Below, piece by piece: positions 3,006-58,616 of a stretch of DNA of 64,000 nucleotides. The position numbers and the translations under genes are program-made. Source of the DNA: Pyrinomonadaceae bacterium (lineage in GTDB: Bacteria; Acidobacteriota; Blastocatellia; Pyrinomonadales; Pyrinomonadaceae); NCBI GenBank assembly GCA_035472495.1, contig DATIPD010000006.1:37312-101311 (forward strand), read 5' to 3'. The notes below the pieces were generated by a model. It did not search any database. It saw only the letters and a list, made by a program, of their open reading frames with translations, and was not told the DNA's origin. The stretch's first letter is position 1; each line of letters begins with the position of its first letter.

Positions 3006-4958
3006 ATGGAACGGGACATCCACTTCAAACCGCAGCGGCTTTTTGTACTGGCTGGCTTAGGACTCATCGCCGCGCTGCTGACTTATCAGGCGTTTGCTTT
3101 GGCTCTGTTCAGCTTGCTGACATTGGCAATTGCGCAGGGGCTGTATATTTCCTGGCTGCGTATTAACGCCAAGAACGGTGAGATCGAAGAGATAAGCCGG
3201 ATTCATTTCGCCACTGCCGAGGCGTTGGCGACCGCGATCGATGCCAAAGATCAAACAACGCATTGTCATGTGCGACGCGTGCAAATCTATGCTGCTGGTT
3301 TGGGAGAGGTCATTGGACTCCCCAGCTCTGAGATAGCGGCCTTGAGAGCTGGCGCACTGCTTCATGACATTGGCAAGTTGGCGGTGCCTGCGCACATCAT
3401 CAACAAACCCGGCAGGCTGACTCAGGCTGAGTTCGAAAAAATCAAGATACATACTACGGTTGGCGCGCAAATTCTCAGTCGCGTCGAATTTCCTTATCCC
3501 GTCACTCCGATTGTCCGCCATCATCATGAGCAGTGGGACGGCATGGGTTACCCTGACGGCTTAAAGGGCGAACAGATTCCGATTACTGCCCGTATCATTT
3601 CAGTGGTCGACTGTTTTGACTCCGTCAGAGAAGATCGCCCTTTTCGCCGCGGCATGACACGAGATGAGGCGATCGCTCTTCTGTGGCGCGGCTCTGGAAA
3701 TCATTTCGACCCGAACATAGTCGATTTATTCATTGAACACTTACCAAAGTTCGAGGAACAAATTAGGGCCGCGAGTCTGCAGCAACAGTCGCCGGCAAAC
3801 GAAGACCACGAACCTCTGTCGCTTGCCGAGATGGATCTGGCTCAGACTCGAGAACGCGGCTCTTTCATGGCCTACGATCAAATCAAGAGCGCGCATCAAG
3901 AGGTCCATGCTCTTTACGAAATCGCGCGCACCTTCGGCTCGTCCCTCGACGTGCGCAATACCGTCGAGATTCTGGTTGATAAAGTTGGACACGTCGTTCC
4001 GTTTCAAACGTGCGTAGTTTATCTGTTTGACGATCGGAAAGGTTACGCGAGCCCCGCTCACGTTGCCGGACTGAACGCCCAAACATTGGCGACCAGGCAT
4101 GTAGCTCTGGGTGAGGGCGTGACCGGATTTGCGCTGGCAAATCGCTGCGCAGTTAATCAACTTCACCCCAGCCTCGATTTCCCCGGCCTGGATTGCGCCA
4201 CGGAATATCGCTCGATGGCGTCACTGCCTTTGTTCAAGGACGAAATCCTGCTCGGTGCTCTGTCGGTCTATTCAACAGAACTCAGTCAGTATTCAGACGA
4301 CCACATGCGTTTGCTCGAAACGGTCACCCGTCTGGCCTCAGATGCATTGTCCAATGCGGTCCAGCATGCGCAGGCTGAATCAAACGCCCTGACTGATCCG
4401 CTAACAGGATTACCAAATGCGCGTTACCTCGCGTTGCGCTTCGACGAAGAAGCTGCCCGAGCGCGCCGCAATTCGCGACCGTTCCAGGTAGTGATGCTTG
4501 ATCTGGACGACTTCAAGATAGTTAACGACACTTTCGGACACAAAGTGGGCGATAAGATGTTGCGCGAGATGGGCCGGATTATTCAGACACAGCTCCGTGA
4601 GTACGATTTTCTCGCGCGTTACGCGGGTGATGAATTCGTGGCTATCGTGCAGGAGCTGGTTGGCAATCAGGTGGAGGATCTGCGTCAGCGCATTGAGACT
4701 GCCGTATCGCAGTTTTCATTGCGCGTGCGCAAGGGTGATCGGGCTCGCGTCGGCATTAGCGTGGGCACGGCTACTTTCGATAGCGATGGCGATACTCTCG
4801 ATCAACTCTTGGTGGCTGCAGATCAGGCGATGTACCGCGCGAAGTCGGAGCACAAGATCGCGAAACTATCCCCCGGAGCCGGCAAGGCTGCTTCCTCGTT
4901 CGATGGCGACAAGCTGGTAGAAGTCGACCACGACAATCTCCTCGTCTCCGTCAATTAA
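3006..4958 (+). CDS. membrane-anchored HD-GYP / GAF / GGDEF composite c-di-GMP signalling protein
   Basis: 650 aa with two N-terminal TM helices. HD-GYP motifs (HDIGKLAVP, HHHEQWDGMGYPDGL), a GAF-like middle region, and a C-terminal GGDEF domain with an AGDEF variant and an RxxD I-site (REYD) 5 residues upstream. Confidence 0.85.
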   Translation: MERDIHFKPQRLFVLAGLGLIAALLTYQAFALALFSLLTLAIAQGLYISWLRINAKNGEIEEISRIHFATAEALATAIDAKDQTTHCHVRRVQIYAAGLGEVIGLPSSEIAALRAGALLHDIGKLAVPAHIINKPGRLTQAEFEKIKIHTTVGAQILSRVEFPYPVTPIVRHHHEQWDGMGYPDGLKGEQIPITARIISVVDCFDSVREDRPFRRGMTRDEAIALLWRGSGNHFDPNIVDLFIEHLPKFEEQIRAASLQQQSPANEDHEPLSLAEMDLAQTRERGSFMAYDQIKSAHQEVHALYEIARTFGSSLDVRNTVEILVDKVGHVVPFQTCVVYLFDDRKGYASPAHVAGLNAQTLATRHVALGEGVTGFALANRCAVNQLHPSLDFPGLDCATEYRSMASLPLFKDEILLGALSVYSTELSQYSDDHMRLLETVTRLASDALSNAVQHAQAESNALTDPLTGLPNARYLALRFDEEAARARRNSRPFQVVMLDLDDFKIVNDTFGHKVGDKMLREMGRIIQTQLREYDFLARYAGDEFVAIVQELVGNQVEDLRQRIETAVSQFSLRVRKGDRARVGISVGTATFDSDGDTLDQLLVAADQAMYRAKSEHKIAKLSPGAGKAASSFDGDKLVEVDHDNLLVSVN

Positions 4959-10660: not shown

Positions 10661-12364
10661 TTATTCCTGCTTGAGTTGTTTACGGTCGATTTTGCCGCGG
10701 TCGTTTTTCGGCAGCGACTCAACGAATTCGAACCAGCGTGGGTATTTGTAAGGCGCAAGGCGAGCTTTTACAAAATTCCTAAGATCCTCAGCCAATCCCT
10801 CGCCCTCGATGGCCCCACTATCGACACCACTCGAACTTTGGACTTTGGACATTGGACTTTGGACACTTTTTCGTAAGACAACGAAGGCCTTCGGCTTAAC
10901 CAGTCCGTCGCCGCCGTCATGTCCGATGACGGCGCACTCAAGTACAGCATCGTGTTGCAGCAAACAGTTTTCGATCTCCGCTGGCGCGACAAAAATTCCC
11001 GAGACCTTCAACATGTCGTCGGTGCGGCCGTGATACCAGTAGTAACCTTCTTCATCTACATGAAACTGATCTCCAGTGGTGCACCAATCGCCTGCGAAAG
11101 TCTCCTTCGATTTTTCCTGAGCATTCCAGTAACACAGCGCCGCTGAGTCGCCTTTGATTTTCAATGTGCCCATGTCGTTGACTGCAACCTGGTTTCCGTC
11201 AGCAGCAACGATGCGCGCTTCGTAGCCTTCAACAAGTCGACCGAGGCTTCCCGGTTTCACATCACCCGGCCGATTTGTAATGTAGATGTGAAACATTTCG
11301 GCGGAGCCAATGCCATCACAAATCTCCACCGCCAAACTTTTCTTCCAGCGTTCGTATAACTCGACCGGTAACGCTTCGCCGGCTGAATAACAAAAGCGCA
11401 GGCTTGACAAATCGCGAGCCGCAGCGTCTGGTGCATTCAGCATCGAATTGATCATGGTTGGCACCGTGGTAAGGATCGTCGGGCGATAACGCTCAATCAC
11501 TTCGAAAAGCTTTTCCGGCGTCGAGCGCTCGGAAAAGAGTGCGGTGGCTCCGCCGACCGCGAAAGGGAACAACAAATTCGTTCCAGTGGCATAGCCGAAG
11601 AAGAGCTTGGGAACCGAAACTGTCAAATCGTTTTCATTCACGCCCATGGTTCGCTTGGCGAATACTTCGGTGTTGAAAGGCAGATCATGTTGCAGATGGA
11701 CCGCGCCCTTCGGATGGCCGGTAGACCCGGACGTGAATAACCAGATCGCGATGTCGTCACGATGAGTGTCGGCGGGCGAGCATTCATCATCGGCGGAAAG
11801 AAGGGCACCGGCGAATGATTCCCAGATCAATGAGTCATTGGTGAAGGTTTTTGTCCTCTCCCTTTGGGAGGGGATTGAGGGCAGGGCCTGTCGTCGTCCA
11901 CTAAAACCCTCTCCCCGGCCCTCTCCCAGAGGGAAAGAGGGGTCCTTTTCACCAACGAACACGACAGCGGTTAAATAACGCGCCTCACTTGCTGCCTCAC
12001 TGAATGTGTTCAGCAGCGACTCGTGCACAACAGCCACCTTCGCACGCGTGTACTCGAGGTAGTACTTGTAATCTTCCGCGGGCAGCAGCGGGTTGACCAT
12101 CGTGATGACAGCCCCAATCCGTGCTGCGCCGAACCAGCTCCACACGAACTCCGGACAGTCTGGCAACACCAACAGAACGCGATCCTCGATCTCCACGCCA
12201 AGTTCGCGCAACGTGTTGCCGACGCGGTTAGACATTCGCGCCGTCTGGCCGTAGGTAAAAGTCTGATCTTGAAAGTAAAGGCAGGTTTTGTTTTCGCGCC
12301 CTTCCTCCAGGTTGTGGTAGAGGAAGTAGTCCGCCATGTTGAAGCGCTCTGGAAAGTCAGTCAC
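10661..12364 (-). CDS. benzoate/2-aminobenzoate-CoA ligase family (aryl-CoA ligase)
   Basis: AMP-binding motif TSGSTGHPKG, benzoate-CoA-ligase-like N-terminus, C-terminal PKNDRGKIDRK. Sits next to kynA/kynU. Carries two in-frame repeat-derived inserts. Confidence 0.8.
   Translation of the reverse strand: MTDFPERFNMADYFLYHNLEEGRENKTCLYFQDQTFTYGQTARMSNRVGNTLRELGVEIEDRVLLVLPDCPEFVWSWFGAARIGAVITMVNPLLPAEDYKYYLEYTRAKVAVVHESLLNTFSEAASEARYLTAVVFVGEKDPSFPLGEGRGEGFSGRRQALPSIPSQRERTKTFTNDSLIWESFAGALLSADDECSPADTHRDDIAIWLFTSGSTGHPKGAVHLQHDLPFNTEVFAKRTMGVNENDLTVSVPKLFFGYATGTNLLFPFAVGGATALFSERSTPEKLFEVIERYRPTILTTVPTMINSMLNAPDAAARDLSSLRFCYSAGEALPVELYERWKKSLAVEICDGIGSAEMFHIYITNRPGDVKPGSLGRLVEGYEARIVAADGNQVAVNDMGTLKIKGDSAALCYWNAQEKSKETFAGDWCTTGDQFHVDEEGYYWYHGRTDDMLKVSGIFVAPAEIENCLLQHDAVLECAVIGHDGGDGLVKPKAFVVLRKSVQSPMSKVQSSSGVDSGAIEGEGLAEDLRNFVKARLAPYKYPRWFEFVESLPKNDRGKIDRKQLKQE
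10835..10866. repeat. Fam-A (GTCCAAAG-type) half element inside the CoA-ligase CDS
   Basis: Tandem ACTTTGG/ACATTGG units, the same word family as the hairpins in the tRNA array. Translated in frame as ...SPMSKVQSS... Confidence 0.7.
11855..11942. repeat. Fam-B (CCCTCTCCC...GGGAGAGGG) element inside the CoA-ligase CDS
   Basis: About 88 nt, collinear with the copy at 19231-19316 and with the inverted copy at 58540-58616. Translated in frame as FPLGEGRGEGFSGRRQALPSIPSQRE. Confidence 0.75.
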
Positions 12365-12506: not shown

Positions 12507-12899
12507 CTAAGCGCCCTCAGCTGCCAGACGTTCTTCAATGAAGCGTGTCAAAAGCAACTCGTCAGCGACTTCCATAAAAACAAACAGCGCCGCAAAACCG
12601 ATCTCGTTGGCAAAATCAACTACCTCAGCCACGATAGTAATTGTTTCGTTGTTGGGCAAGGTAACCTGCAGGCGGACTGGCTCTTTGAGTTTTACGCGGC
12701 CACCACTCAGCACGAAGCATCCGTTAAGACTGAGGCTCGTGATCGTAGCTGCACGATTAGTACGATTGCGTTCCCAGCGAACCGGGAGATTCACTTTGAC
12801 GCGCGCCGCTTCTCGGCGGTCTTTGAATGATACAGTTTTGCTCTTGTCGTCCAGCTTCATGGCCGCCAGCTTCTCGAGGCAGTTTTTGAGGATCGTCAC
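12507..12899 (-). CDS. PilZ-domain protein (c-di-GMP receptor candidate)
   Basis: 130 aa with an RRxxxR-like motif (RREAARVKV) followed by D/NxSxxG-like SLSLNG. Confidence 0.6.
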   Translation of the reverse strand: MTILKNCLEKLAAMKLDDKSKTVSFKDRREAARVKVNLPVRWERNRTNRAATITSLSLNGCFVLSGGRVKLKEPVRLQVTLPNNETITIVAEVVDFANEIGFAALFVFMEVADELLLTRFIEERLAAEGA

Positions 12900-12940
12900 T
12901 CACACGAACGAAGTAACTTTGCCGCCGCGGTTCAGCCGAT

Positions 12941-13798
12941 TCACTCCCCCGCGAACGGGCAACCAGCTGCGCCGTGGTTGAAGTCAAGATAGGTTCGCGC
13001 TTCCCACAGCTCCGGAAAAAACTTTTTATCTAAGGTCGTGCGCAGGTAACCCACACCTTCTGATCCGCCGGTGCCCCGTTTTGTGCCGACCATGCGTTCC
13101 ACCATCTTGATGTGATGCGAGCGCCAAAGCGAAAAATACTCATCATGTTCGAGTAGGGCTTCGGTCAACTGAAACTCTTCGAAACGTGCTTCAAAATGCG
13201 TGAGGATTTCAACTATAGCCTGAGTGCGTTTTCCATAGGCCTTTAGTTGCTCGCGTTCCGCGGCTGAACTTTCAACGACTGGCGCATCGAGCCCGCGACG
13301 TCGGAGTGCTGCGTAGTAGGCATCGTTCAACGAGGGAGCGGAAAACCGTTTTTGCAACCGTTCATGGGCAAACTCATCTTGCTTAAACTCGCGCAACAAA
13401 CCTTCGTGCTTGAGACCGGAAACAAACTCGATCTCGCGAAACTGCATGGATTGAAATCCGCTAGCCGGATTTAGCTGATCCCGAAAGCCCAGGAAACTGA
13501 TGGGCGACATAGTTTCCAGAATGTGAATTTGATTGACGAGCAGTTTTTCGATTTCGACGACGCGGCGCAAAGTGCGTGACGCTTGTCTGAGCTGGTCGTT
13601 ATCAAGGAAGTCGACTGCCGCATCCAGCTCGTGAAGTATTTGTTTGAACCAGAGCTCGTAAGCCTGGTGGATGGTGATGAACAGCAGTTCGTCATGGTGC
13701 ACTGGATCGGAAAGACAGTCTTGCAACGCGATCAGATCGGCGACCCGCAGGTATTTGTTGTAAGAAAGCAGGGAGTTTTTGCCGTAATCGTTGGTCAT
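12941..13798 (-). CDS. kynA: tryptophan 2,3-dioxygenase
   Basis: 285 aa with typical TDO motifs: YNKYLRVADLIALQ..., HDELLFITIHQAYELWFKQILHELD, and a GTGGS C-terminal region. Confidence 0.9.
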   Translation of the reverse strand: MTNDYGKNSLLSYNKYLRVADLIALQDCLSDPVHHDELLFITIHQAYELWFKQILHELDAAVDFLDNDQLRQASRTLRRVVEIEKLLVNQIHILETMSPISFLGFRDQLNPASGFQSMQFREIEFVSGLKHEGLLREFKQDEFAHERLQKRFSAPSLNDAYYAALRRRGLDAPVVESSAAEREQLKAYGKRTQAIVEILTHFEARFEEFQLTEALLEHDEYFSLWRSHHIKMVERMVGTKRGTGGSEGVGYLRTTLDKKFFPELWEARTYLDFNHGAAGCPFAGE

Positions 13799-13804
13799 AA
13801 GCCT

Positions 13805-13875
13805 AAGGATAAAGGATGAGGCATGAAGGATGAGCAGAAGACGTTTTCATCCCTCCGCCTTCATCCTTCAGCCTT
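13805..13875. repeat. Fam-C (GGATGAAG-type) palindromic hairpin
   Basis: Arm AAGGATAAAGGATGAGGCATGAAGGATGAGC and inverted arm TCATCCCTCCGCCTTCATCCTTCAGCC, filling the kynA-kynU spacer. Confidence 0.7.
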
Positions 13876-13876
13876 T

Positions 13877-15064
13877 TCAGAATGCCGCCCCAGCGGTCTC
13901 ATGCACTGCGAAAGCGCGTGTGTCTCTGATCGTTTTCATTTCCTGGATCACGAGTTCCAGTTCTTCGTCGGTCGTGTAAAAGTGGGGCGAGATGCGTACG
14001 CCGGCGCCAGGGCGAAAGTCTACGATGAACTCGCGCCTGATCAACTCGCTGGTGATCGCAGCCGCGTCAGGATGTCCCACAGTGATGGTGCCGCCGCGAT
14101 TGCCTGCGTCCTTCGGACTTGTCACTTCGAAACCCGCGGCTTCGGCAAGTTCGATCAAACGCGTGGTCTGCCGCACGCTCTTGTCACGAATTCTTTCGAC
14201 GCCGATCTCATTGATTATTCGGTAACCCGACTGGGCGGCGTAGAGCGCGGGAATCGCGGGTGAACCGTGCAGAAAACGGGTGATGCCAGCGGCGTAACGC
14301 AACTCAGTCTCGAAGGCGAAAGGCGCGTCGTGCGCCATCCAGCCGGTAGTCTTTGGCTGCAGTTGTTGTTGCAGATCGGGCCGCACGTAAAGATAACCAG
14401 CACCGGGCCCGCCGCACAGCCACTTCACCGAGCCACCGGTCGCAAAATCGACATTCAGCTCGGTTACGTCAAAGGGAACAGTGCCCGCTGATTGATAAGC
14501 ATCGAGCACCACAATGGCGCCAACTTCGTGCGCGCGTTCCGTAATTGCTTTGGCGTTTTGCAAAAAGCCACTCTTGAAGAGAACGTGCGAAAAGGGAACC
14601 AGTAACGTCTCTTCATCAATCGCCGCGAGAAAGCGCTCGAGTGGAATCGTTATGCCGTCGTCTGAGGCAACGGTCTCGATTCTTAGCTTGCCATCGCGCG
14701 CATGCGCTTCGTAAACATACATGACCGACGGGAAGTTCAGTTCTGAATAAACGATTTTGTTTCGCTTGGGCGTCGGCTCGAAGCAGGAAAGAATCAGCGA
14801 CTGGCAGATGGAAACATTTTGGTGCATCACGACGCTGCCGGGCGGCGCCCCGATGATGCGGCCGACCTCGTCGCCGACGGTCACGGGCATGTTCCACCAG
14901 CCTTCCGCCCAGGCGCGCACACCGCGCGTGGCCCATGTTTCAGCGTAATCGTTAAGGCGTGAAAAAGTTTCCCGGGGCATCGCGCCAAGACTATGTGAAA
15001 TCAAGTAAACAGTCTTGTCCAGAATAGGAAACTCGCTACGCCACTTAAGAAGCTCGTCAGTCAA
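13877..15064 (-). CDS. kynU: kynureninase-like class-V PLP enzyme
   Basis: 395 aa with a class-V aminotransferase fold and a kynureninase-like SVKWLCGGPGAGYLYV segment. Lies immediately downstream of kynA. Confidence 0.65.
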   Translation of the reverse strand: MTDELLKWRSEFPILDKTVYLISHSLGAMPRETFSRLNDYAETWATRGVRAWAEGWWNMPVTVGDEVGRIIGAPPGSVVMHQNVSICQSLILSCFEPTPKRNKIVYSELNFPSVMYVYEAHARDGKLRIETVASDDGITIPLERFLAAIDEETLLVPFSHVLFKSGFLQNAKAITERAHEVGAIVVLDAYQSAGTVPFDVTELNVDFATGGSVKWLCGGPGAGYLYVRPDLQQQLQPKTTGWMAHDAPFAFETELRYAAGITRFLHGSPAIPALYAAQSGYRIINEIGVERIRDKSVRQTTRLIELAEAAGFEVTSPKDAGNRGGTITVGHPDAAAITSELIRREFIVDFRPGAGVRISPHFYTTDEELELVIQEMKTIRDTRAFAVHETAGAAF

Positions 15065-15302
15065 AAAGGTTTCTCCGCTCAGTTCCTAAGATTGCTTTAA
15101 TCTATCATACCAACTGACGATCTTTCTTGCTCATCAAAGCCATCCGCAGATTACGGAGAAGACGAAACAAAAGGCAGGAGACAAGGCGAAATATGTCTCC
15201 GTTAAACTCCGAGCGTTTCTGTGTAATCGGCGTAATCTGTGGATGCCTGTTACTACTAGTCAGTGGCTGAACATTGAGGCATGGTAAAGTTAGTCCCGCC
15301 AC

Positions 15303-16775
15303 ATGTGGAAATTTAAGAACCCAATTCGCCATTCGATTCCTGAAACGGCCTGGCCCTCATCAGCCGAAGCGTCGCAGTCGTTGCTTTATCAATCAATCAA
15401 TATTGGCAATTTGCGGGCAAGCAGCCGCACCTGGGTCCCGGCAATGGTGCCCTGGCGCGCCACTGAAGATGGGTTCGTTACGCAGGAGAATCTCGATTGG
15501 TATCGGCGGTTTGCCGCCGGGCACCCGGGAGTTCTGGTAGTCGAAGCGACGGGCGTTCGCGACATACCGAGTGGGCCGCTGTTGCGCATTGGACACGATC
15601 GGTTTGTTCCGGGTTTGAAAAAACTGGTGCAGGCAGTGCGCGAAGCCAGCGACGGCGAGACGAAACTCTTCATTCAAATCATTGACTTCCTCGCGGTGAA
15701 ACGCCGGCCGGAGCCGGAGAAGTTTTTCACGCGCTTCCTGCAAATAAGCGATCGCCAGCGCGACGCGCTCGCGAGTCTCACCAGCGATCCGACCTGGCGA
15801 GAGCGTGACGAAGTTGACATCAGAGAGTTCCTTACCAAGACAAATGACGAGACACTCGATCAAGTGCTAGATCAGCGCGAGTTGGAATCGCTGCGTTTCG
15901 GTTATCGCGAGCACGTGACTGATGTACACCTGCCGCACGTGCAGGAGTTGCCTCAAGTCTTGCCAAACATTTTTGCGGAAGCTGCAGGTCGCGCTCGCGC
16001 TGCGGGTTTCGACGGCGTCGAGTTGCACTACGCCCATGCCTACACGATGGCCGGTTTCCTCAGTGCGCTCAACAACCGTGAAGACGGCTACGGCGGATCG
16101 CGCGAGAACAGAATTCGCTTGCCGCTCGAAGTGTTTCAGTCAGTGCGATCGGTGGTGGGCGATGACTACGTTGTGGGTGTGCGGTTTCTGGCGGACGAAG
16201 TAATTGCCGGTGGAAGTCGCGTGGCTGATGCGAATTACTTCGGAGTTGAATTTGCGCGCGCGGGTTTCGATTTTCTCTCGCTTTCCAAAGGCGGAAAATT
16301 TGAAGACGCGCAGCAGCCAAAGATCGGTCAGGCAGTTTATCCCTACACCGGACAAAGCGGTTATGAATGCATGCCGACGGTGCTTTCGGATGCAACCGGG
16401 CCGTTTGGTCGTAGCGTTCCTCTGGTTTCGAAAATCAAACGAGCTGTAACTGAAGCCGGATTCACCACGCCAGTGGTCGCGACCGGAGGGATTACAACTT
16501 TCGAACAGGCCGAAGCGATCTTGCAGGAAAAACAGGCCGACATCGTGGGTCTAGCGCGTCAGGCACTCGCCGATCCGGATTGGTTCATCAAAGTGAAATT
16601 AGGCCGCGGCGCTGATGTGAGACGCTGCACTTACACGAACTATTGTGAAGCACTCGATCAGGCGCATCGCGCCGTTACCTGCAAGCTCTGGGACCGACTT
16701 GATTTGCAGGAGCCAGGAATTGCGACGGTGGATGAAGGACGACGACGATTGCTCGCACCGGAATGGCAGCGCTAG
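15303..16775 (+). CDS. Old-Yellow-Enzyme-family NADH:flavin oxidoreductase (candidate reductase half of anthraniloyl-CoA monooxygenase/reductase)
   Basis: 490 aa with an OYE TIM-barrel signature (VPAMVPW...EDG, VVEATGV, GFDGVELHYAHAY, ATGGI). The start is uncertain. Confidence 0.8.
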   Translation: MWKFKNPIRHSIPETAWPSSAEASQSLLYQSINIGNLRASSRTWVPAMVPWRATEDGFVTQENLDWYRRFAAGHPGVLVVEATGVRDIPSGPLLRIGHDRFVPGLKKLVQAVREASDGETKLFIQIIDFLAVKRRPEPEKFFTRFLQISDRQRDALASLTSDPTWRERDEVDIREFLTKTNDETLDQVLDQRELESLRFGYREHVTDVHLPHVQELPQVLPNIFAEAAGRARAAGFDGVELHYAHAYTMAGFLSALNNREDGYGGSRENRIRLPLEVFQSVRSVVGDDYVVGVRFLADEVIAGGSRVADANYFGVEFARAGFDFLSLSKGGKFEDAQQPKIGQAVYPYTGQSGYECMPTVLSDATGPFGRSVPLVSKIKRAVTEAGFTTPVVATGGITTFEQAEAILQEKQADIVGLARQALADPDWFIKVKLGRGADVRRCTYTNYCEALDQAHRAVTCKLWDRLDLQEPGIATVDEGRRRLLAPEWQR

Positions 16776-17899
16776 ACCTTCGCCGCCTCATACTCTGCCA
16801 TAAATGCCGGATCTCTCCGCCGCAGATCATCATCACTAACGCGCCCACTTCTGGTCATTAGCACATAAGCAAGCTGCAGCGGCGAGAGGTTCATGTAGTC
16901 TTTTGCATTTTCAAACCACAGCATGCTGTCGTACGCCGCAGACTGATACTCTGCAATCACTGGTTTGCGAGTTGTCTCGAATGCCGGCAGCGCGTCCGTG
17001 ACCGCTGAGTTCTTCTGGAAGCACTCAAAGAGCGCGATGGAATCTTCCAGCGCCAGCTTAGTTCCTGAGCCAATAGAAAAGTGCGCGGTGTGCAGTGCGT
17101 CACCGAGCATGACGGTCTGATCAAAAAACCAGTTGTCGTTTTTTACCAGCAGGAAGTTAATCCATTTCGAATTATTTGAGCGCAGTTGGTGGCCTTCGAG
17201 GTCTAGCGCAAAAACTTCTTCGAGATACCTGCGAGTATCCGCCTCATTCATCTCAGCAAAGCCGGCCGCCTCCCACGTGTTTTGATCGCATTCAATAATG
17301 AATGTGCTGGTGGTTTGGTTGAACTTGTAAGAGTGCGCGGCGAACACACCGGCAGCGCTTTCGCGGAAAGTCAGTGTCAGACCATGGAAGAGTTTGTTGG
17401 TCCCGAACCAGATGTAACGGTTCGGGCGAACATCAAGAGTTGGGTGAAAGTTGTCCGCATACTGTTTCCGGGCCGTGCTATTGACGCCGTCGGCGGCCAC
17501 AAATAGATCGCAGTCGACCCGCAACTGCTCAAGATCGTTTACTTCTGTTTTGAAAAGCAGCCGCGCGCCCAGTTCTTCGCAACGTCGCTGCAGTATCTTG
17601 AGCAACTGCAGGCGCGAGATGCCAGAAAAGCTGTTGCCACGAATAGAAATCTTGCTGTCACGATGAACTACATCGACGTTGTCCCACGCTGCGAATGATG
17701 AGGTGATCGCAGCGTGTGACTCTTCATCCGCCGCGCGCAGATTTGCCAGGGTCTTTCCCGAAAAGACCACGCCCCAACCGAACGTATCATCGGGGCCATT
17801 GCGCTCGTAGACTGTAATGTCATGCGCGGGGTTCGCCCGTCGCATGAGAATGGCGAAATACATTCCCGCCGGCCCGCCACCGATGATGTTGATCTTCAT
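16772..17899 (-). CDS. FAD-dependent aromatic monooxygenase (candidate monooxygenase half of anthraniloyl-CoA monooxygenase/reductase)
   Basis: 375 aa with the dinucleotide fold MKINIIGGGPAGMYFA, DTFGWGVVFS and a GDALHTAHFSIGSG motif. Convergent with the OYE gene, with a 4-nt overlap. Confidence 0.8.
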   Translation of the reverse strand: MKINIIGGGPAGMYFAILMRRANPAHDITVYERNGPDDTFGWGVVFSGKTLANLRAADEESHAAITSSFAAWDNVDVVHRDSKISIRGNSFSGISRLQLLKILQRRCEELGARLLFKTEVNDLEQLRVDCDLFVAADGVNSTARKQYADNFHPTLDVRPNRYIWFGTNKLFHGLTLTFRESAAGVFAAHSYKFNQTTSTFIIECDQNTWEAAGFAEMNEADTRRYLEEVFALDLEGHQLRSNNSKWINFLLVKNDNWFFDQTVMLGDALHTAHFSIGSGTKLALEDSIALFECFQKNSAVTDALPAFETTRKPVIAEYQSAAYDSMLWFENAKDYMNLSPLQLAYVLMTRSGRVSDDDLRRRDPAFMAEYEAAKV

Positions 17900-18031
17900 T
17901 TCTTACTTACGTGTCTTCGCCGGCCCCCTTCCTTTGCATCAGTTCAAATTGAATTCGTTGAGCACCGATTGAGGTGTTTGCTGACAATGGCTTCATGTAT
18001 CACCTTCTAAGATGACAACGGTGTGTTCAGG

Positions 18032-19228
18032 TCAGTCCTTCAGTAGTTGGTTGGCAATAATTAGTTTCTGTATCTCGGAAGTGCCTTCGTAGATTCTGAG
18101 GGCGCGGACGTCACGATAAAGTCGCTCAACGACACTGCCGCGGACGAGTCCTGCACCGCCGTGAATCTGCACTGCCTGATCGACAATGCGGCAGGCTGCT
18201 TCCGTCGCGAAGAGTTTTGCTTCGCTGGCCTCGCGCGTCACGCGCCCGTTGCCGGTGTCCCTCAAGTGCGCGGCACGGTAAACCAGCAGCCGAGCCGCAT
18301 CGAGTTCCGTGATCATGTCGGCAAGTTTTTCCTGGACCAGCTGATGTTCGGCAAGGAAGCGACCAAACTGTTTTCGGGTCACCGCGTGACGCACCGACTC
18401 GTCCAGCGCGCGGCGCGCCATGCCACAGGCCGCCGCGCCCACGCTTGCGCGGAAAGTGTCCATCGTCCGCATGGCCAGCACAAATCCATCGCCTTCAGCT
18501 CCAACCATGTTCTCCGCGGGCACGCGACAACTCTGAAACTCAATTTCGCCGATCGGGTGCGCGGCAATCATCGCCGTTCGCTCAAGCACATTGAAGCCCG
18601 GCATCTTTGCCCCAACGATAAACGCCGACAAAGCCGCGCGCCCGTTGGCATCAGTTCCGGTGCGCGCAAACACGGTGTAGAAATCTGCCACGCCGGCGTT
18701 AGAGATAAACCGCTTCCGGCCGTCGATTACGTAAGCATCGCCGTCTAACTTTGCCGTGGTTTTGATAGCAGCGACGTCAGAACCGGCGTCTGGTTCGGTC
18801 AGGGCAAACGCGGCGATTGCTTTGCCCTCAACCGCGCGCGCCAGCCAAAAATCGCGCACGTGTTCCGGGGCCGCCTGACTAATTGCATACGTTCCCAGAC
18901 CCTGCATAACGAACGCCAAGTCAGCGAGCGCAGAAGAGTAGGAAAGCGCTTCACGCACCAGACAAAGCGCGCGCACGTCCAGCTTTGAACCGGGCGAAGC
19001 AACGGCGTAGCGCAACGCATCGGCATTCGCGAGCGTCGTTACAAACTCGCGCAGTTGGGCTTCGACGTCGCGTTCCTCGGCTGCGCGTGACTCGATGTCG
19101 CTTTCGATCAGCGTTTGTAAATCGGCTGCCAGCTCGCGATGCTCGGCAGTGAAGAAGGGAAGTTGTTCTATAAACTTGTCCATAATCATAAAGACGAACG
19201 TTGGATCTCGTACCTCATTTGTTTTCAC
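18032..19228 (-). CDS. acyl-CoA dehydrogenase
   Basis: 398 aa with ACAD motifs ([10 protein letters not shown], the [10 protein letters not shown]-terminal signature). Confidence 0.9.
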
Positions 19229-19230
19229 TT

Positions 19231-19316
19231 TCCCGTCCCTTTGGGAAGGGGATTGAGGGGAAGGGTTTGGTGCGTGCTAAACCCTCTCCCCCACTCTCTC
19301 CCAGGGGGAGAGGGAG
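19231..19316. repeat. Fam-B (CCCTCTCCC...GGGAGAGGG) intergenic element
   Basis: CCCGTCCCTTTGGGAAGGGGATTGAGGGG...AAACCCTCTCCCCCACTCTCTCCCAGGGGGAGAGGG, between the ACAD start and the hydratase stop. Confidence 0.75.
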
Positions 19317-19322
19317 CAAGGT

Positions 19323-20117
19323 CTACTTGAATTTGGCGGCACGTTTAGCAACAAACGCCTCGTACGCTTCGCGATAATCGGAATGCTGCATACAGATCGC
19401 CTGGGCTTGTGCTTCGCATTCCAGCGCTGCCTCCAGGCCCATATCTGCTTCGCGGTCTAACATCTCTTTTGTTTTGGCGAGCGCAAAGCCCGGACCCTTT
19501 GCGAGTCGCTCGGCAAACTCTCGAGTGGTTGCCGCCAGTTGATCGCCAGGAACCACGCGGTTGTAAAGTCCGATTCGCTCAGCCTCTGCAGCAGAAATGA
19601 AGTCGCCGGTATAGAGCAACTCGGTTGCCTTGGCTAGCCCGACGGTGCGCGGCAACAGGTAGGCGGCGCCCATGTCCGCACCGGAAAGCCCAACTTTCAC
19701 AAAGAGAAAAGCAATCTTTGCCGTGTCAGACGCGATGCGAATGTCAGAGGCCAGCGCAATACAGGCACCGGCGCCGGCGGTCGTACCGTTAAGACTGGCG
19801 ATGACCGGCTTTCGCAAAGCGCGCATGTTCTGGATGAGCTCGCAAGTCATGCGTGTGAACTCAAGCAAACCTGACATGTCACACTTGAATAGTTCGCCGA
19901 TGATGTCGTGCACGTCGCCGCCAGAACAAAAAGCCCGTCCTGCTCCCGTCAGCACAACTACCCGCGCGCCGGCTTCCTCTCGCAACGCCGCAAACGTGTC
20001 GGTGAGTTCGCGATAAACTTCAAACGTTAAGGCGTTAAGCCGGTCGGGACGGTTGAGCGTGATGGTGACCACGCCGTCTTCGCTCTGTTCGTACAGAAAA
20101 CTTTTCGGTTTGTTCAT
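19323..20117 (-). CDS. enoyl-CoA hydratase/isomerase family protein
   Basis: 264 aa with the crotonase fold (VVVLTGAGRAFCSGGD, NGTTAGAGA). Confidence 0.9.
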   Translation of the reverse strand: MNKPKSFLYEQSEDGVVTITLNRPDRLNALTFEVYRELTDTFAALREEAGARVVVLTGAGRAFCSGGDVHDIIGELFKCDMSGLLEFTRMTCELIQNMRALRKPVIASLNGTTAGAGACIALASDIRIASDTAKIAFLFVKVGLSGADMGAAYLLPRTVGLAKATELLYTGDFISAAEAERIGLYNRVVPGDQLAATTREFAERLAKGPGFALAKTKEMLDREADMGLEAALECEAQAQAICMQHSDYREAYEAFVAKRAAKFK

Positions 20118-22238: not shown

Positions 22239-22928
22239 TTACGCGCTCTGAAAAGGGGAATTCGGCGGTGAAACGCCGAAAACTTCCCGGTGCAAAGCGG
22301 CGTAATCATCCCACGTGTCCATGTCGCGTGCAATCAAATTCGTTTTCACTTCAACGCGACGGACCAGCGCCTGGTGCTGGTTGAAAAAAGCTTTCAGGCC
22401 GGTATTTGGATCGAGCTGAAGCAGCTCTTCGCGGAAGCTCAGATCGACTAGCACCGGATGCCCGCCGCGTTGGTTGCACGTTGGCTTCACTAATAGCGCG
22501 CCGTTTTTCCATTCGGCAATAACTTGACGGACCACGTCTCCCGGCACTGCAGCATGGTCAACCGGATTGATGACTACGACTTTGCTCACCGCTGAAAGTG
22601 CATCGACCCCGCAGGCAATCGACGCATTCATCTCGCTGTGAGGGTCAGGATTGACGGCGAACGTCAGATCAAGATTGCGCAGTCGTTCTTTCAGTTCGGC
22701 AGCTCGCTTGTCCTGCCCGATGACGATTACGAATTGCTCAACTCCGCCGGCGCGTAGATTGTCGATGCAAGTTTCGACGACTGTTTTTGAACCAAAGGGA
22801 AGGAGGGGCTTGAACGCACCCATGCGGGACGAACGACCGGCGGCAAGGATGATGGCGGCAACGCTAAAGTCTGGAGTCGTGAGTCTGGAGTCTGGAGTCC
22901 GCGGATTTGGCAAAGGACTTTCACTCAT
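22239..22928 (-). CDS. MobA/MocA-like molybdenum cofactor nucleotidyltransferase
   Basis: AAIILAAGRSSRMGAFKPLLPFG motif (NTP_transf_3). Lies downstream of the molybdenum hydroxylase genes. Confidence 0.75.
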   Translation of the reverse strand: MSESPLPNPRTPDSRLTTPDFSVAAIILAAGRSSRMGAFKPLLPFGSKTVVETCIDNLRAGGVEQFVIVIGQDKRAAELKERLRNLDLTFAVNPDPHSEMNASIACGVDALSAVSKVVVINPVDHAAVPGDVVRQVIAEWKNGALLVKPTCNQRGGHPVLVDLSFREELLQLDPNTGLKAFFNQHQALVRRVEVKTNLIARDMDTWDDYAALHREVFGVSPPNSPFQSA

Positions 22929-22967
22929 CTTGGAAACGCTTGAACTCCATACTGGAGACTCACGACG

Positions 22968-46911: not shown

Positions 46912-46917
46912 ACGGTA

Positions 46918-46993
46918 GTCCAAAGTTCAACGTCGAAAGTCCAAAGTCCGTTTGGGTTACAAGACTTTGGACTTTGGACTCGAGACATTGGAC
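46918..46993. repeat. Fam-A (GTCCAAAG) palindromic hairpin
   Basis: Arm GTCCAAAGTTCAACGTCGAAAGTCCAAAGTC and inverted arm GACTTTGGACTTTGGACTCGAGACATTGGAC, between tRNA-Tyr and tRNA-Trp. Confidence 0.8.
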
Positions 46994-47001
46994 TGGCTTT
47001 G

Positions 47002-49184: not shown

Positions 49185-50363
49185 ATGCCTTACGAAAAGC
49201 TACCTATCGGTGGCGCCCGCAACGAGATTCTCTCGTGGGCCAACCACGACTTCAGCATCGAGGAACAGTCGATGTTGCGCAACGTTTCGCGATTGCCTTG
49301 TCTGTTCAAACATGTGGCGCTGATGCCTGATGCACACTTGGGCAAAGGCAGCATGGTTGGTTCAGTCATCGCTACGAAACAAGCGGTGATTCCGGCAACG
49401 GTCGGCGTCGACATCGGCTGCGGCATGATGGCGGTGAAGACACCGTTCAAGAGCGGCATCCTCGACGGAAAGTTGAAGGAGCTGCGCCTCGCGATCGAAG
49501 AAACAATTCCGGTCGGCTTCAACGCGTACAAAGAATCGGTTGACGAGTCTTCGTACTGGGACGGCTGGAAGGAATTTGGTGAACTGCATCAGGGCGTGCA
49601 AAGTCGGAAAGTGAAAGCGATGACGCAGCTGGGCACGCTTGGTGGCGGCAATCATTTCATCGAAGTTTGTCTGGACACAGAAAACTTCGTTTGGTTGATG
49701 CTCCACTCAGGTTCACGCAATATCGGCAAGGAGTTGGCAGAACGTCACATCTCGACAGCCAAGGGCTTGTGGCAACTGAATGAACTGCCTTCACCCGATC
49801 TTGCTTACTTCGTGCAGGGCACGCCGGAATTTGCGGCGTACTGGAAAGACTTGAAGTGGGCCCAGGGTTACGCGATGAAGAATCGCGAAATCATGATGAC
49901 GCGACTGTTACAGGTCTTCAACAAGTTGTTCAATCATCGTCAGCCCTTCAAGCCGGAACTTCAGGTTAACTGCCATCACAATTACGTTGCGCTCGAGGAG
50001 CATTACGGCGAGAAAGTTTTCGTCACCCGCAAGGGCGCAATCAATGCGGACAAAGACGCATTCGGCATTATTCCCGGCTCGATGGGCGCGAAATCGTTCA
50101 TCGTGCAAGGCCGCGGACTGGCGGAGAGTTTTAATTCCTGCTCTCACGGCGCTGGTCGCAAGATGTCGCGCGGTGCAGCCAAGCGAACTTTTAATAAGGA
50201 CGACCTGGCTCGACAAACTGCGGGCGTCGAATGTCGCAAAGACGTAGGCGTGCTGGATGAAATTCCTGGCGCTTACAAAGACATCAAAGCGGTGATGCGC
50301 AACCAGAGCGATCTGGTAAAGATCATTGCCGAGATCAAACAAGTGGTGTGTGTGAAAGGCTAG
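49185..50363 (+). CDS. rtcB: RNA-splicing/repair ligase RtcB
   Basis: 392 aa with RtcB motifs GVDIGCGM, GGGNHFIE, HSGSRNIG, NCHHNY, PGSMG and SCSHGAGR. RBS AAAGGAGAAA lies upstream. Confidence 0.92.
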   Translation: MPYEKLPIGGARNEILSWANHDFSIEEQSMLRNVSRLPCLFKHVALMPDAHLGKGSMVGSVIATKQAVIPATVGVDIGCGMMAVKTPFKSGILDGKLKELRLAIEETIPVGFNAYKESVDESSYWDGWKEFGELHQGVQSRKVKAMTQLGTLGGGNHFIEVCLDTENFVWLMLHSGSRNIGKELAERHISTAKGLWQLNELPSPDLAYFVQGTPEFAAYWKDLKWAQGYAMKNREIMMTRLLQVFNKLFNHRQPFKPELQVNCHHNYVALEEHYGEKVFVTRKGAINADKDAFGIIPGSMGAKSFIVQGRGLAESFNSCSHGAGRKMSRGAAKRTFNKDDLARQTAGVECRKDVGVLDEIPGAYKDIKAVMRNQSDLVKIIAEIKQVVCVKG

Positions 50364-50430
50364 TCCAAAGTCCAACGTCCAAAGTCAGGAATCGTCAAAC
50401 AGACTTTGGACATTGGACTCGAGACTTTGG
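50363..50430. repeat. Fam-A palindromic hairpin
   Basis: Arm GTCCAAAGTCCAACGTCCAAAGTC and inverted arm GACTTTGGACATTGGACTCGAGACTTTGG. Starts at the rtcB stop codon. Confidence 0.8.
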
Positions 50431-50515: not shown

Positions 50516-50521
50516 AATCCA

Positions 50522-50579
50522 GTCCAAAGTCCAACGTCCAAAGTCAGGATCATCAAACAGATATTGGACCTTGGACTTT
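50522..50579. repeat. Fam-A palindromic hairpin
   Basis: Arm GTCCAAAGTCCAACGTCCAAAGTC and a shorter inverted arm ATATTGGACCTTGGACTTT. Confidence 0.75.
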
Positions 50580-50672: not shown

Positions 50673-50749
50673 GTCCAAAGTCCAACGTCCAAGGTCCAAA
50701 GCCAAGAATCGATGAACAGACTTTGGACCTTGGACGTTGGACATCGGAC
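50673..50749. repeat. Fam-A palindromic hairpin
   Basis: Arm GTCCAAAGTCCAACGTCCAAGGTCCAAAGCC and inverted arm GACTTTGGACCTTGGACGTTGGACATCGGAC. Confidence 0.8.
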
Positions 50750-50755
50750 TAAGAC

Positions 50756-51191: not shown

Positions 51192-51198
51192 CACTCCA

Positions 51199-51275
51199 GT
51201 CCAAAGTCCAAGGTCCAAAGTCCAAGGTCAAGAACCGCAAGACAGACTTTGGACGTTGGACGTTGGACCTTGGAC
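51199..51275. repeat. Fam-A palindromic hairpin
   Basis: Arm GTCCAAAGTCCAAGGTCCAAAGTCCAAGGTC and inverted arm GACTTTGGACGTTGGACGTTGGACCTTGGAC. Confidence 0.8.
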
Positions 51276-51299
51276 TACTCTACGAAGGGAGGTGCCGTG

Positions 51300-58539: not shown

Positions 58540-58616
58540 CCCTCTCCGCCTGGGAGAGGGTGGGGAGGGTTTAGCGGACTAGACCCTCTCCTTTTGTTCC
58601 TCCCATGGCGAGGGAT
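58540..58616. repeat. Fam-B element in inverted orientation
   Basis: CCCTCTCCGCCTGGGAGAGGGTGGGGAGGGTTTAGCGG...CCCTCTCC...CCCATGGCGAGGG. Its reverse complement is collinear with the 11855 and 19231 copies. Confidence 0.7.

What the first reader, a model, noticed from the sequence alone, without database searches (positions are those of the whole stretch)
10835..11942. Two different repeat families inserted in frame inside the aryl-CoA ligase gene
The 567-aa ligase ORF stays open through an about 88-nt Fam-B element (11855-11942, translated FPLGEGRGEGFSGRRQALPSIPSQRE) and a Fam-A word tract (10835-10866, translated ...SPMSKVQSS...). Both fall where this enzyme family has variable surface loops: before the TSGSTGHPKG motif, and between the last beta-hairpin and the LAPYKYPR segment. 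In-frame palindromic-element insertion into proteins is known from Rickettsia (RPEs). Seeing the same elements here as in intergenic hairpins suggests an analogous process in this lineage.
Basis: partly seen in the sequence, partly recalled or inferred. Interest (0 to 1): 0.65.

Follow-up and report, generated by a model that had tools for sequence, protein, structure and literature searches.

The report
Hairpin repeats translated inside a CoA-ligase
Two kinds of small repeated DNA that normally form hairpins between genes sit in frame inside a working aryl-CoA ligase gene of a soil acidobacterium, and the same two surface loops of this enzyme carry at least nine such repeat families across related species, an analogue of the Rickettsia "selfish DNA in proteins" case in a free-living lineage.

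Summary
The ORF at 10661-12364 (-) encodes a 567-aa benzoate/anthranilate-CoA ligase in a tryptophan-to-2-aminobenzoyl-CoA gene cluster of a Pyrinomonadaceae (Acidobacteriota) soil bacterium.

- **Fam-B.** A complete 88-nt Fam-B palindromic element lies at 11855-11942. It is 78-79% identical to intergenic copies at 19231-19312 and in other genomes.
- **Fam-A.** A 4.3-unit heptamer tract lies at 10835-10864. The same unit builds the hairpins between tRNA genes.
- **The gene works.** Both repeats are read in frame. All ANL motifs are intact and core dN/dS is 0.02-0.07.
- **The sites are loops.** Solved homologues have gaps at both sites. The AF2 model shows low-confidence coil there.

The inserts are lineage-specific. 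In 259 non-identical orthologues the basal loops are short. One clade carries inserts from at least nine dispersed hairpin-repeat families, and only in these two loops. Some are complete elements with perfect 26-bp stems. None of 161 orthologous genes with DNA is frameshifted. These repeats were not found truly inside neighbouring genes.

My reading is repeated insertion of REPIN/MITE-like elements, filtered by selection to in-frame, stop-free, hydrophilic readings in two permissive loops. This is RPE-like in how it works. It is a new lineage and a striking hot spot, not a new kind of system. The mobilising enzyme and any function are unknown.

The parts
10661..12364 (-). Aryl-CoA ligase gene (567 aa; benzoate-CoA ligase family, probably anthranilate-CoA ligase), host of both inserts
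   Evidence: ORF. TIGR02262 at 526 bits. Pfam AMP-binding plus AMP-binding_C. PDB 4wv3 at E 4e-120. Motifs TSGSTGHPKG 211, GRTDDMLK 446 and PKNDRGK 552 are present, and dN/dS is 0.02-0.07.
11855..11942 (.). Fam-B palindromic element, complete, read in frame as codons 141-170 (DPSFPLGEGRGEGFSGRRQALPSIPSQRER). It lies in the loop between strand 133-137 and strand 180-183, upstream of the P-loop.
   Evidence: Full-length alignment with intergenic copies. Absent from 257 of 259 orthologues. pLDDT below 50 and coil. The hairpin is weakened: DNA z -0.2 to -0.4, RNA sense z -2.3 to -2.5.
10835..10866 (.). Fam-A tract: 4.3 tandem 7-nt units (ACTTTGG on +, GTCCAAA on the coding strand), read as codons 500-510 (SVQSPMSKVQS). 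One arm only, in the C-terminal-domain loop after the beta-hairpin 474-497.
   Evidence: A 16-residue gap in 4wv3/2v7b at query 504-519. No fold. The same tract sits at the same codon position in L012, L013, L083, P0002, P0010 and P0020.
19231..19312 (.). Intergenic Fam-B copy, between the enoyl-CoA hydratase and acyl-CoA dehydrogenase genes of the same catabolic cluster
   Evidence: It folds well: DNA z -3.0, RNA z -4.5.
58542..58579 (.). Partial Fam-B copy, intergenic
46917..46994 (.). Fam-A hairpin (inverted heptamer arrays) after tRNA-Tyr
50362..50430 (.). Fam-A hairpin before tRNA-Pro
50521..50579 (.). Fam-A hairpin between tRNA-Pro and tRNA-Gly
50673..50750 (.). Fam-A hairpin between tRNA-Gly and tRNA-Arg
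   Evidence: DNA fold -28.6 kcal/mol, z -7.6.
51198..51276 (.). Fam-A hairpin after tRNA-Cys
12507..20117 (-). Context: PilZ, tryptophan 2,3-dioxygenase, kynureninase, OYE-type flavoprotein (+ strand), FAD monooxygenase, acyl-CoA dehydrogenase and enoyl-CoA hydratase. This is a Trp -> kynurenine -> anthranilate -> 2-aminobenzoyl-CoA cluster. Another heptamer hairpin lies at 13801-13875 between kynureninase and the dioxygenase.
   Evidence: Pfam. The same gene order in L001. Repeats.

Best explanation
The gene is a functional aryl-CoA ligase, probably an anthranilate-CoA ligase, of a Pyrinomonadaceae soil bacterium. Its genome, like those of its relatives, is full of small hairpin-forming dispersed repeats. 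These include REPIN/MITE-like palindromes of 80-140 nt and hairpins made of inverted arrays of 7-nt units.

Copies of these repeats have landed many times in two short, solvent-exposed, length-tolerant loops of the enzyme. One loop lies between the N-terminal subdomain strand and the P-loop region. The other lies in the C-terminal domain, between the beta-hairpin and the helix that precedes LAPYKYPR.

Selection on an indispensable enzyme removed every insertion that shifted the frame, brought a stop codon or encoded a hydrophobic stretch. What remains is read through by the ribosome as Gly/Ser/Pro/Arg/Gln-rich, probably disordered, surface peptides.

In the window:
- The Fam-A tract is an old insertion inherited by a whole subclade, reduced to one arm.
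- The Fam-B element is a younger, complete insertion shared with only one other known orthologue. It is now decaying: its stem is weakened and its peptide is 54% identical where the core is 92% identical.

**Shown:** the homology of the inserts to dispersed repeats, their absence from most orthologues, the intact gene under purifying selection, and the loop positions.

**Inferred:** the insertion mechanism (transposition by a RAYT-like or other transposase, or template switching at hairpins), translation of the inserts, and their neutrality.
For: **Homology to dispersed repeats.**
- Fam-B is 78-79% identical over about 80 nt to intergenic copies in the window and in two other genomes.
- Fam-A matches 27/27 to 29/29 nt with 1-2 changes to the tRNA-cluster hairpin arms.
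- I searched 51 loop DNA segments from orthologues against 1.41 Mb of Pyrinomonadaceae DNA with the ligase genes masked. 23 of them hit (179 hits). None of 51 length-matched control segments from the ligase core hit.
- All 70 hit sites lie outside long ORFs. They are near-perfect hairpins of 80-140 nt.
- Translating the intergenic copies in their stop-free frames gives the very peptides seen in the loops: LPLPLGEGWGEG..PSQREGK, VTQTVSLR..QTNSLRY, RGSSPTVREG, STGSGSDRV, GTAGVSPA, VQSPTSKVQSQ.

**Polarity (insertion, not loss).**
- Loop 2 is 10 aa in 96 of 259 orthologues and reaches 70 aa.
- Motif counts in loop 1: Fam-B 2, Fam-C 15, GASPLPD 16, GGHGGPP 4.
- Motif counts in loop 2: Fam-A 38, SPTVREG 37, GSDRV 48, PGSPAGQP 10, AGVSPA 11.
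- None of these motifs occurs elsewhere in the protein.
- A clean filled/empty pair exists at the nucleotide level: L122 against L131, +96 nt.
- Complete intragenic elements keep perfect stems: L122 -67.7 kcal/mol, z -9.5; L116 -80.8 kcal/mol, z -12.4; L012 z -8.1.

**Function kept.**
- All 161 orthologous genes with DNA are a single uninterrupted frame.
- dN/dS is 0.02-0.07 and all motifs are present.

**Loop positions.** PDB alignments and the AF2 model.

**Relaxed constraint on the insert.** P0001 and P0002 share 19 of 35 residues in the insert against 91.6% in the core.

**Precedent.** RPEs, and intragenic REPs in several species (PMC10969869, PMC3733652).
Against: - No target-site duplication or transposase was identified, so transposition itself is not shown.
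- Synonymous sites between the window gene and its nearest orthologues with DNA are saturated (dS 1.8-3). The age of the Fam-B insertion cannot be bracketed.
- The P0001/P0002/P0003 branching is unresolved. One insertion, an insertion followed by a loss, or two insertions all remain possible.
- A pure 'random insertion plus filter' model does not explain why no true intragenic copy was found in about 1 Mb of neighbouring ORF interiors.
- There is no transcript or peptide evidence. The only runs that hold the sequence are DNA metagenomes.
- The AF2 model is mediocre (mean pLDDT 70). It is also low in some catalytic loops, so low pLDDT alone is weak evidence.
Confidence: 0.8

Rival explanations
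1. Targeted hot spot. The two loops are not merely tolerant. They are preferred landing sites, for example because the local DNA or an earlier insert offers the hairpin or short motif that the mobilising enzyme recognises. On this view elements pile up by nested insertion, as REP clusters do. This complements the best explanation rather than excluding it.
For: - At least nine unrelated families sit in two sites of one gene.
- Composite loops hold 2-4 families side by side, as in L022, L014 and L099.
- With intergenic elements as queries there were 29 sites in ligase genes (130 kb) against 3 in other long ORFs (1,059 kb). All three lie at ORF edges (Fisher p 5e-25, biased by how the families were chosen).
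- An unbiased scan for perfect stems of at least 16 bp found 4 in ligase genes and 2 in other ORF interiors. Neither of the two is truly intragenic (binomial p 0.02).
Against: - The families were ascertained from the ligase itself.
- The flanking DNA samples the same syntenic genes again and again.
- Loop 1 received different families in lineages that show no earlier insert (L122 against L131), so nesting is not required.
- No shared target motif was found.
Confidence: 0.3
2. Exaptation. The inserts are kept because they do something. The mRNA hairpins might act as internal stabilisers, processing sites or pause sites in the operon. The peptides might act as flexible surface tails that affect solubility, partner binding or regulation of the ligase.
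For: - Similar hairpins sit between cistrons of the same cluster (13801-13875 and 19231-19312).
- Some intragenic copies keep perfect stems.
- The Fam-A peptide has been retained across many species.
- The window Fam-B copy still folds moderately as sense RNA, z -2.3 to -2.5.
Against: - About 96 of 259 orthologues do without any loop-2 insert.
- The inserts differ in family, length and sequence between close relatives.
- The Fam-B peptide diverges much faster than the core and its DNA stem has decayed.
- The Fam-A tract has lost its partner arm and does not fold.
Confidence: 0.12
3. No insertion at all. The loops are low-complexity sequence that expanded in place, by slippage or duplication, and only resembles the intergenic repeats by chance or by shared composition.
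For: - Heptamer tracts can grow by slippage.
- L014 shows a tandem amplification of one repeat arm inside the loop.
Against: - The DNA matches are long and specific: E 5e-8 for Fam-B, and 0 of 51 controls hit.
- Both arms and the spacer of complete elements are present.
- The same families occur as intergenic hairpins in many genomes.
Confidence: 0.03
4. Artefact or decay. The gene is a pseudogene, or the inserts are mis-assemblies at repeats in a metagenome-assembled genome.
For: - Logan's contigs break at the heptamer tract. Two contigs overlap by 27 nt at 10838-10864.
- The source is a metagenome.
Against: - Both sides of that break are the same gene, in frame. Orthologues from independent assemblies have the tract at the same codon.
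- Fam-B lies inside one contig at even depth. A homologous insert is in P0002 from another sample.
- dN/dS is 0.02-0.07 and the motifs are intact.
Confidence: 0.02

Closest known systems
Rickettsia palindromic elements (RPEs; Ogata et al. 2000, Science 290:347, as summarised in PMC10969869 and PMC3733652)
   Same: Both are dispersed palindromic repeats of roughly 100 nt that occur between genes and, in frame, inside functional protein genes. In both cases the inserts sit at positions compatible with the fold and add a peptide segment to the product.
   Different: - No sequence relation was tested or is expected. The families differ and the lineage is a free-living soil Acidobacteriota, not an obligate intracellular alphaproteobacterium.
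- RPEs are spread over dozens of unrelated genes. Here the intragenic copies found are concentrated in two loops of one enzyme and come from at least nine families.
- Several copies here are half elements.
REP / REPIN elements mobilised by RAYT transposases, including intragenic REPs (PMC3116915, PMC3733652)
   Same: - The intergenic relatives are inverted doublets of a short palindrome that form one long hairpin.
- Two families (GSDRV: GGTAGCGACCGGGTC; SPTVREG: CAGTAGCCCGACCGT) carry GTAG next to the stem.
- REPs inside coding regions, and different REPs at about the same site of recB in two Xanthomonas species, have been reported.
   Different: - Fam-B and Fam-A have no GTAG tag.
- No RAYT gene was looked for or found.
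- The stems are longer (25-40 bp) than classical REPs.
Bacterial MITEs that create in-frame fusions (ERIC, BOX, Coxiella QMITE, Anabaena MITEs; review PMC10969869)
   Same: They are small non-autonomous inverted-repeat elements with open frames that can fuse with host ORFs.
   Different: No target-site duplication and no parent insertion sequence were identified here.
Cyanobacterial STRR (short tandemly repeated repetitive heptanucleotide) sequences (from my own knowledge, not checked in the library)
   Same: Fam-A and its many sister families are tandem arrays of 7-nt units lying mostly between genes.
   Different: Here two arrays in inverted orientation form a hairpin. The lineage is different. 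One array is translated inside a gene.

Membership tests
ANL superfamily, benzoate-CoA ligase family (TIGR02262) | Whole-protein score above the curated cut-off; AMP-binding and AMP-binding_C domains | tested here: met
   526 bits against a cut-off of 375. PF00501 at E 1e-72 and PF13193 at E 2e-14.
ANL superfamily, benzoate-CoA ligase family (TIGR02262) | Core motifs: P-loop T/SSGT/STGxPKG, GRxDDxxK hinge, C-terminal PKxxxGK lysine | tested here: met
   TSGSTGHPKG at 211, GRTDDMLK at 446, PKNDRGK at 552.
Anthranilate (2-aminobenzoate)-CoA ligase specifically | Substrate specificity for anthranilate | not testable with these tools
   Only indirect evidence. The best PDB match is anthranilate-CoA ligase 4wv3. 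The gene lies in a dioxygenase / kynureninase / FAD monooxygenase / OYE cluster.
RPE-like in-frame palindromic elements (by mechanism) | The inserted sequence belongs to a dispersed palindromic repeat family that also occurs outside genes | tested here: met
RPE-like in-frame palindromic elements (by mechanism) | The insert is in frame and stop-free, the host gene remains functional, and the site is a surface loop | tested here: met
   Intact ORFs in 161 of 161 genes. dN/dS 0.02-0.07. A gap in solved homologues and coil in the model. Translation itself was not tested.
RPE families of Rickettsia (membership) | Sequence similarity to RPE-1 to RPE-10; CGTC tag | not tested
   No RPE sequences were compared. 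Fam-B has no CGTC end in the alignment. It is not filed as a member.
REP/REPIN | Short palindrome with a terminal GTAG; inverted doublets | tested here: inconclusive
   GTAG lies next to the stem and doublets are seen for the GSDRV and SPTVREG families in related loci. This is not so for Fam-B or Fam-A, the two families in the window gene.
REP/REPIN | An associated RAYT (Y1 transposase) gene | not tested
   No search for RAYT genes was made in the window or the loci.
MITE | Terminal inverted repeats plus a target-site duplication and a related autonomous IS | tested here: inconclusive
   Terminal inverted repeats are present. No duplication is evident at the Fam-B flanks or at the L122/L131 filled/empty pair. 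No parent IS was sought.

The most novel reading that the evidence does not exclude
Two loops of a single catabolic enzyme act as a lineage-wide landing pad for hairpin repeats. At least nine unrelated families have entered the same few codons in different Pyrinomonadaceae species, and some are still perfect 26-bp-stem hairpins. Neighbouring genes stay free of them. That pattern would point to a structure- or sequence-directed insertion process that can be studied in a natural series of filled and empty sites. It would also point to a route by which selfish hairpin DNA routinely creates new disordered protein segments in free-living bacteria.
Probability: 0.3. Interest if true: 0.75.

Novelty: new member of a known kind. 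Interest (0 to 1): 0.6.

Why it matters
In-frame colonisation of proteins by palindromic selfish DNA is best known from Rickettsia, an obligate intracellular bacterium with a reduced genome, and otherwise from scattered intragenic REPs and MITEs. This case shows the same outcome in abundant, free-living soil Acidobacteriota.

It comes with an unusually rich comparative series: 259 orthologues, empty and filled sites, fresh and decayed copies, and at least nine families. The series can be used in several ways:
- to measure what kinds of peptide a permissive loop accepts;
- to ask how ribosomes deal with -70 to -80 kcal/mol hairpins inside coding sequence;
- to test whether hairpin repeats choose their targets.

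There are also practical consequences. These loops are natural sites for engineering insertions into aryl-CoA ligases. The repeats break short-read assemblies and inflate 'hypothetical protein' calls in MAGs of this family.

Tried and rejected
- **DNA of the closest Fam-B-bearing orthologue (P0002).** The look-up of encoding contigs gave no DNA because the sample file was too large. The window-to-P0002 comparison therefore rests on protein only.
- **Peptide search with the Fam-B translation.** The first query was too short. The second returned 11 domain-less ORFs of 58-107 aa and did not return the window protein itself. It says nothing about embedded copies in other proteins.
- **Rfam at gathering thresholds.** Only tRNAs were found in the window. 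No known RNA family covers the repeats.
- **Sequencing runs.** No RNA run holds the gene. There are only two DNA soil metagenomes, kept as contigs, so I could not test expression or presence/absence polymorphism. The 'joint' 10865->11903 is a contig from another Fam-B copy, not a deletion.
- **Bootstrap NJ tree.** The run timed out. I replaced it with nearest-neighbour resampling, which left the P0001/P0002/P0003 order unresolved.
- **Target-site duplication.** None was convincing at the Fam-B flanks or at the L122/L131 pair.
- **Pseudogene, chimera and in-place expansion.** All rejected; see the rival explanations.
- **Phase variation by heptamer slippage.** I considered it. No length variant appears in the contigs and none of 161 orthologues is frameshifted. 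It stays a remote possibility only.
Full report
**1. What is there**

- The protein scores 526 bits on the benzoate-CoA ligase family model TIGR02262, whose cut-off is 375.
- It has the AMP-binding and AMP-binding_C domains.
- Its closest solved relatives are anthranilate-CoA ligase 4wv3 (E 4e-120) and benzoate-CoA ligase 2v7b.

The upstream genes are PilZ, tryptophan 2,3-dioxygenase, kynureninase, an OYE-type flavoprotein, an FAD monooxygenase, an acyl-CoA dehydrogenase and an enoyl-CoA hydratase. The gene order is the same in a related genome. The enzyme is therefore most likely the anthranilate-CoA ligase of a tryptophan-to-2-aminobenzoyl-CoA pathway. This is an inference from context and was not tested. 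Names attached to homologues place the organism in Pyrinomonadaceae, Acidobacteriota.

**2. The two repeats are real**

*Fam-B (11855-11942, codons 141-170).*
- It aligns end to end with an intergenic copy at 19231-19312, which lies between the hydratase and dehydrogenase genes.
- It also aligns with copies in two other genomes, at 76-79% identity. A partial copy lies at 58542-58579.
- The family consensus is an imperfect palindrome: TCCCTCTCCCTnTGGGAGAGGGnnGGGGAGAGGG, then about 20 nt, then CCCTCCCCTCAAnCCCCTCCCAAAGGGAGGGGA.

*Fam-A (10835-10864).*
- It is 4.3 tandem units of ACTTTGG.
- The word is 200-fold over-represented in the window.
- Elsewhere it forms the two arms of hairpins placed between tRNA genes. 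One example folds at -28.6 kcal/mol, z -7.6.
- A heptamer array read in any frame gives the same 7-aa periodic peptide. That is why the coding-strand units (GTCCAAA)n appear as SPxSKVQS.

*State of the genic copies.*
- Inside the gene only one Fam-A arm is present, and it does not fold.
- The genic Fam-B copy folds no better than shuffled sequence as DNA (z -0.2 to -0.4). It folds moderately as sense RNA (-46.6 kcal/mol, z -2.3 to -2.5).
- The intergenic Fam-B copies give z -3 to -6.4.

*Independent assembly.* An independent assembly of a soil metagenome holds the Fam-B region unchanged within one contig at depth 64. That assembly breaks at the heptamer tract, as expected for a repeat, but both sides belong to the same gene in frame.

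**3. The inserts are lineage-specific and lie in loops**

In HMMER alignments to 4wv3 and 2v7b, query residues 504-519 face a 16-residue gap. That gap lies between the last beta-hairpin and the helix leading to LAPYKYPR. Residues 140-196 fall between two aligned blocks.

An AlphaFold2 model built on 84 sequences has mean pLDDT 70. It shows residues 141-169 and 503-516 as coil with pLDDT below 50, flanked by confident strands and helices. The model is also weak in some catalytic loops, so it is supporting evidence only.

I collected 120 database orthologues, 80 species-representative genome loci and 80 metagenome loci. This gave 259 non-identical proteins.
- Loop 2 is 10 aa in 96 of them and reaches 70 aa.
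- The common state of loop 1 is 'GDHEHDHDVDFTN'.
- Fam-B occurs in only two proteins: the window protein and P0002, which comes from another sample.
- The Fam-A tract is shared by a subclade at exactly the same codon position: L012, L013, L083, P0002, P0010 and P0020.
- Fam-A is therefore an old, inherited insertion and Fam-B a younger one.
- The order of P0001, P0002 and the insert-free P0003 is unresolved (91.0-92.9% core identity). I cannot say whether Fam-B entered once, entered twice, or was lost once.

**4. The gene is alive**

All 161 orthologous genes with DNA are a single uninterrupted frame. Between the window gene and nine orthologues, core dN is 0.05-0.12 and dS 1.8-3.0. That gives dN/dS of 0.02-0.07. 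dS is saturated, so the ratios are rough, but the direction is clear. The P-loop, the hinge and the catalytic-lysine motifs are intact.

The Fam-B peptide is 19/35 identical between P0001 and P0002, against 91.6% for the core. This fits a weakly constrained passenger.

**5. The bigger picture: a hot spot**

*The loop inserts are dispersed repeats.*
- I searched loop DNA from 51 orthologue loops against 1.41 Mb of Pyrinomonadaceae DNA with all ligase genes masked.
- 23 queries hit (179 hits). None of 51 length-matched controls from the ligase core hit.
- The 70 hit sites are all outside long ORFs.
- They are near-perfect hairpins of 80-140 nt with 25-40-bp arms.

*Families.* Besides Fam-A and Fam-B, I found:
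- GSDRV (GGTAGCGACCGGGTC);
- SPTVREG (CAGTAGCCCGACCGTnAGGGAGGGC);
- AGVSPA (GGGACCGCGGGCGTCCCGCCCGCAA);
- Fam-C/TVSLR (GTAACGCAAACTGTTAGTTTGCG);
- GASPLPD;
- GGHGGPP (GGGGCGGCCACGGAGGGCCGCCCC);
- a PGSPAGQP motif.

*The peptides match.* Translating the intergenic copies in their stop-free frames reproduces the loop peptides. Counts in the 259 proteins:

| Loop | Family | Proteins |
|---|---|---|
| 1 | Fam-B | 2 |
| 1 | Fam-C | 15 |
| 1 | GASPLPD | 16 |
| 1 | GGHGGPP | 4 |
| 2 | Fam-A | 38 |
| 2 | SPTVREG | 37 |
| 2 | GSDRV | 48 |
| 2 | PGSPAGQP | 10 |
| 2 | AGVSPA | 11 |

No motif occurs outside the two loops.

*Some copies are recent.* Some intragenic copies are complete and fresh.
- L122 and L114 carry a 96-nt element, -67.7 kcal/mol, z -9.5.
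- L116 carries a 126-nt version, -80.8 kcal/mol, z -12.4.
- L012 carries a Fam-C element, z -8.1.
- L122 against L131 is a clean filled/empty pair at the nucleotide level.
- Unrelated families cannot descend from one another, so at least nine independent insertions are required.

*Neighbouring genes are free of them.*
- With intergenic elements as queries there were 29 sites in ligase genes, 70 intergenic sites and 3 at the edges of other long ORFs.
- A family-independent scan for perfect stems of at least 16 bp found 4 in ligase genes (257 kb) and 101 in non-ORF-interior DNA (623 kb).
- The same scan found 2 in interiors of other long ORFs (942 kb). On inspection, one is a spurious ORF and the other an intergenic spacer that happens to be open.
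- These comparisons are biased. The families were chosen from the ligase, and the flanks resample the same syntenic genes. Even so, they indicate that intragenic copies are rare in these genomes and concentrated in this gene.

**6. Mechanism**

The best-supported account is repeated insertion of small hairpin repeats. Purifying selection on an enzyme that cannot be lost then keeps only in-frame, stop-free, hydrophilic readings in two loops that tolerate extra length.
- The filter is visible. For the SPTVREG arm, only one of the three frames in that orientation lacks a stop, and it is the one observed.
- The second arm of Fam-A would encode WTLDVG-type hydrophobic peptides and is never seen in the loops.
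- Insertion by transposition is inferred, not shown. GTAG next to the stem and the inverted-doublet layout of two families point to REP/REPIN-type elements moved by RAYT transposases (PMC3116915, PMC3733652). No transposase was sought and no target duplication was seen.
- The concentration in one gene suggests that tolerance alone may not be the whole story. A target preference or nested insertion is a live rival, at about 0.3.
- A function for the hairpins or the peptides is possible but not favoured, because many orthologues lack them and they vary freely.

**7. Comparison with what is known**

The process works like the Rickettsia palindromic elements and like the intragenic REPs and MITEs reported in several bacteria. 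Different REPs at about the same site of recB in two Xanthomonas species are a precedent for site recurrence.

I found no paper on such repeats in Blastocatellia or Pyrinomonadaceae. Absence from the searched library is not proof of novelty. The elements are not filed as RPEs: the sequences were not compared, the lineage differs and there is no CGTC tag. REP/REPIN membership is inconclusive for the two families in the window.

**8. Verdict**

It is a new member of a known kind in a new, free-living lineage. The added finding is that the same two loops are a multi-family hot spot across the family. Interest 0.6.

Noticed in passing
window 46826-52743 (+): 27 tRNA genes are packed into about 6 kb, covering most amino acids. 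Many are separated by hairpins made of inverted heptamer arrays. It is an unusually dense tRNA array for a bacterial chromosome.
   Followed up: partly
window 13801-13875, 22868-22974, 30565-30712, 37894-38038, 46745-46815, 48078-48154, 50837-50968, 52063-52486: Many different 7-nt units (AAGGATG, AGTCTGG, AGTGAAA, CAGCAAT, GATCTGA, AGTTTCA, GATTGCC...) each form tandem arrays paired with an inverted array, giving hairpins. Period 7 dominates the tandem-repeat list of the window. All lie outside long ORFs except the one in the ligase. This recalls cyanobacterial STRR heptamers, but here they are arranged as palindromes.
   Followed up: partly
L122 and L114 (ligase loop 1), L116: Complete 96-126-nt palindromic elements sit in frame inside the ligase gene. 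They have perfect 26-bp stems (RNA -68 to -81 kcal/mol) and are read as GGHGGPPLQLN...VGVALRGHPL. L131 and L150 show the empty site.
   Followed up: yes
L014 ligase loop 2: Four tandem copies of a single repeat arm (GGTAGCGACCGGGTTGATCGG, peptide GSDRVDR) are followed by an SPTVRKG arm. This is an in-place amplification of inserted repeat DNA within a coding loop.
   Followed up: no
L070 4475-5146: An intergenic hairpin (4806-4871) is open in the frame that joins the 3' end of an acyl-CoA dehydrogenase gene to the 5' end of the next FAD monooxygenase gene. No stop codon lies between them in that frame. This could be a fusion, a missing stop or a sequencing issue.
   Followed up: no
window 48492-48516: A single arm of the Fam-C repeat (TGTAACGCAAACTGATAATTTGCGT) lies in the tRNA cluster. 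This family is inserted in ligase loop 1 of other species but not in the window gene.
   Followed up: no
window 10838-10864 in run X1: Logan's short-read contigs of the source metagenome end and begin within the heptamer tract. Other contigs at the same depth carry further Fam-B copies. These repeats fragment assemblies of this organism.
   Followed up: partly
proteins P0121-P0131: The Fam-B translation matches only short (58-107 aa) domain-less 'hypothetical proteins' in the public protein collection. These are most likely spurious gene calls over intergenic repeat copies.
   Followed up: no
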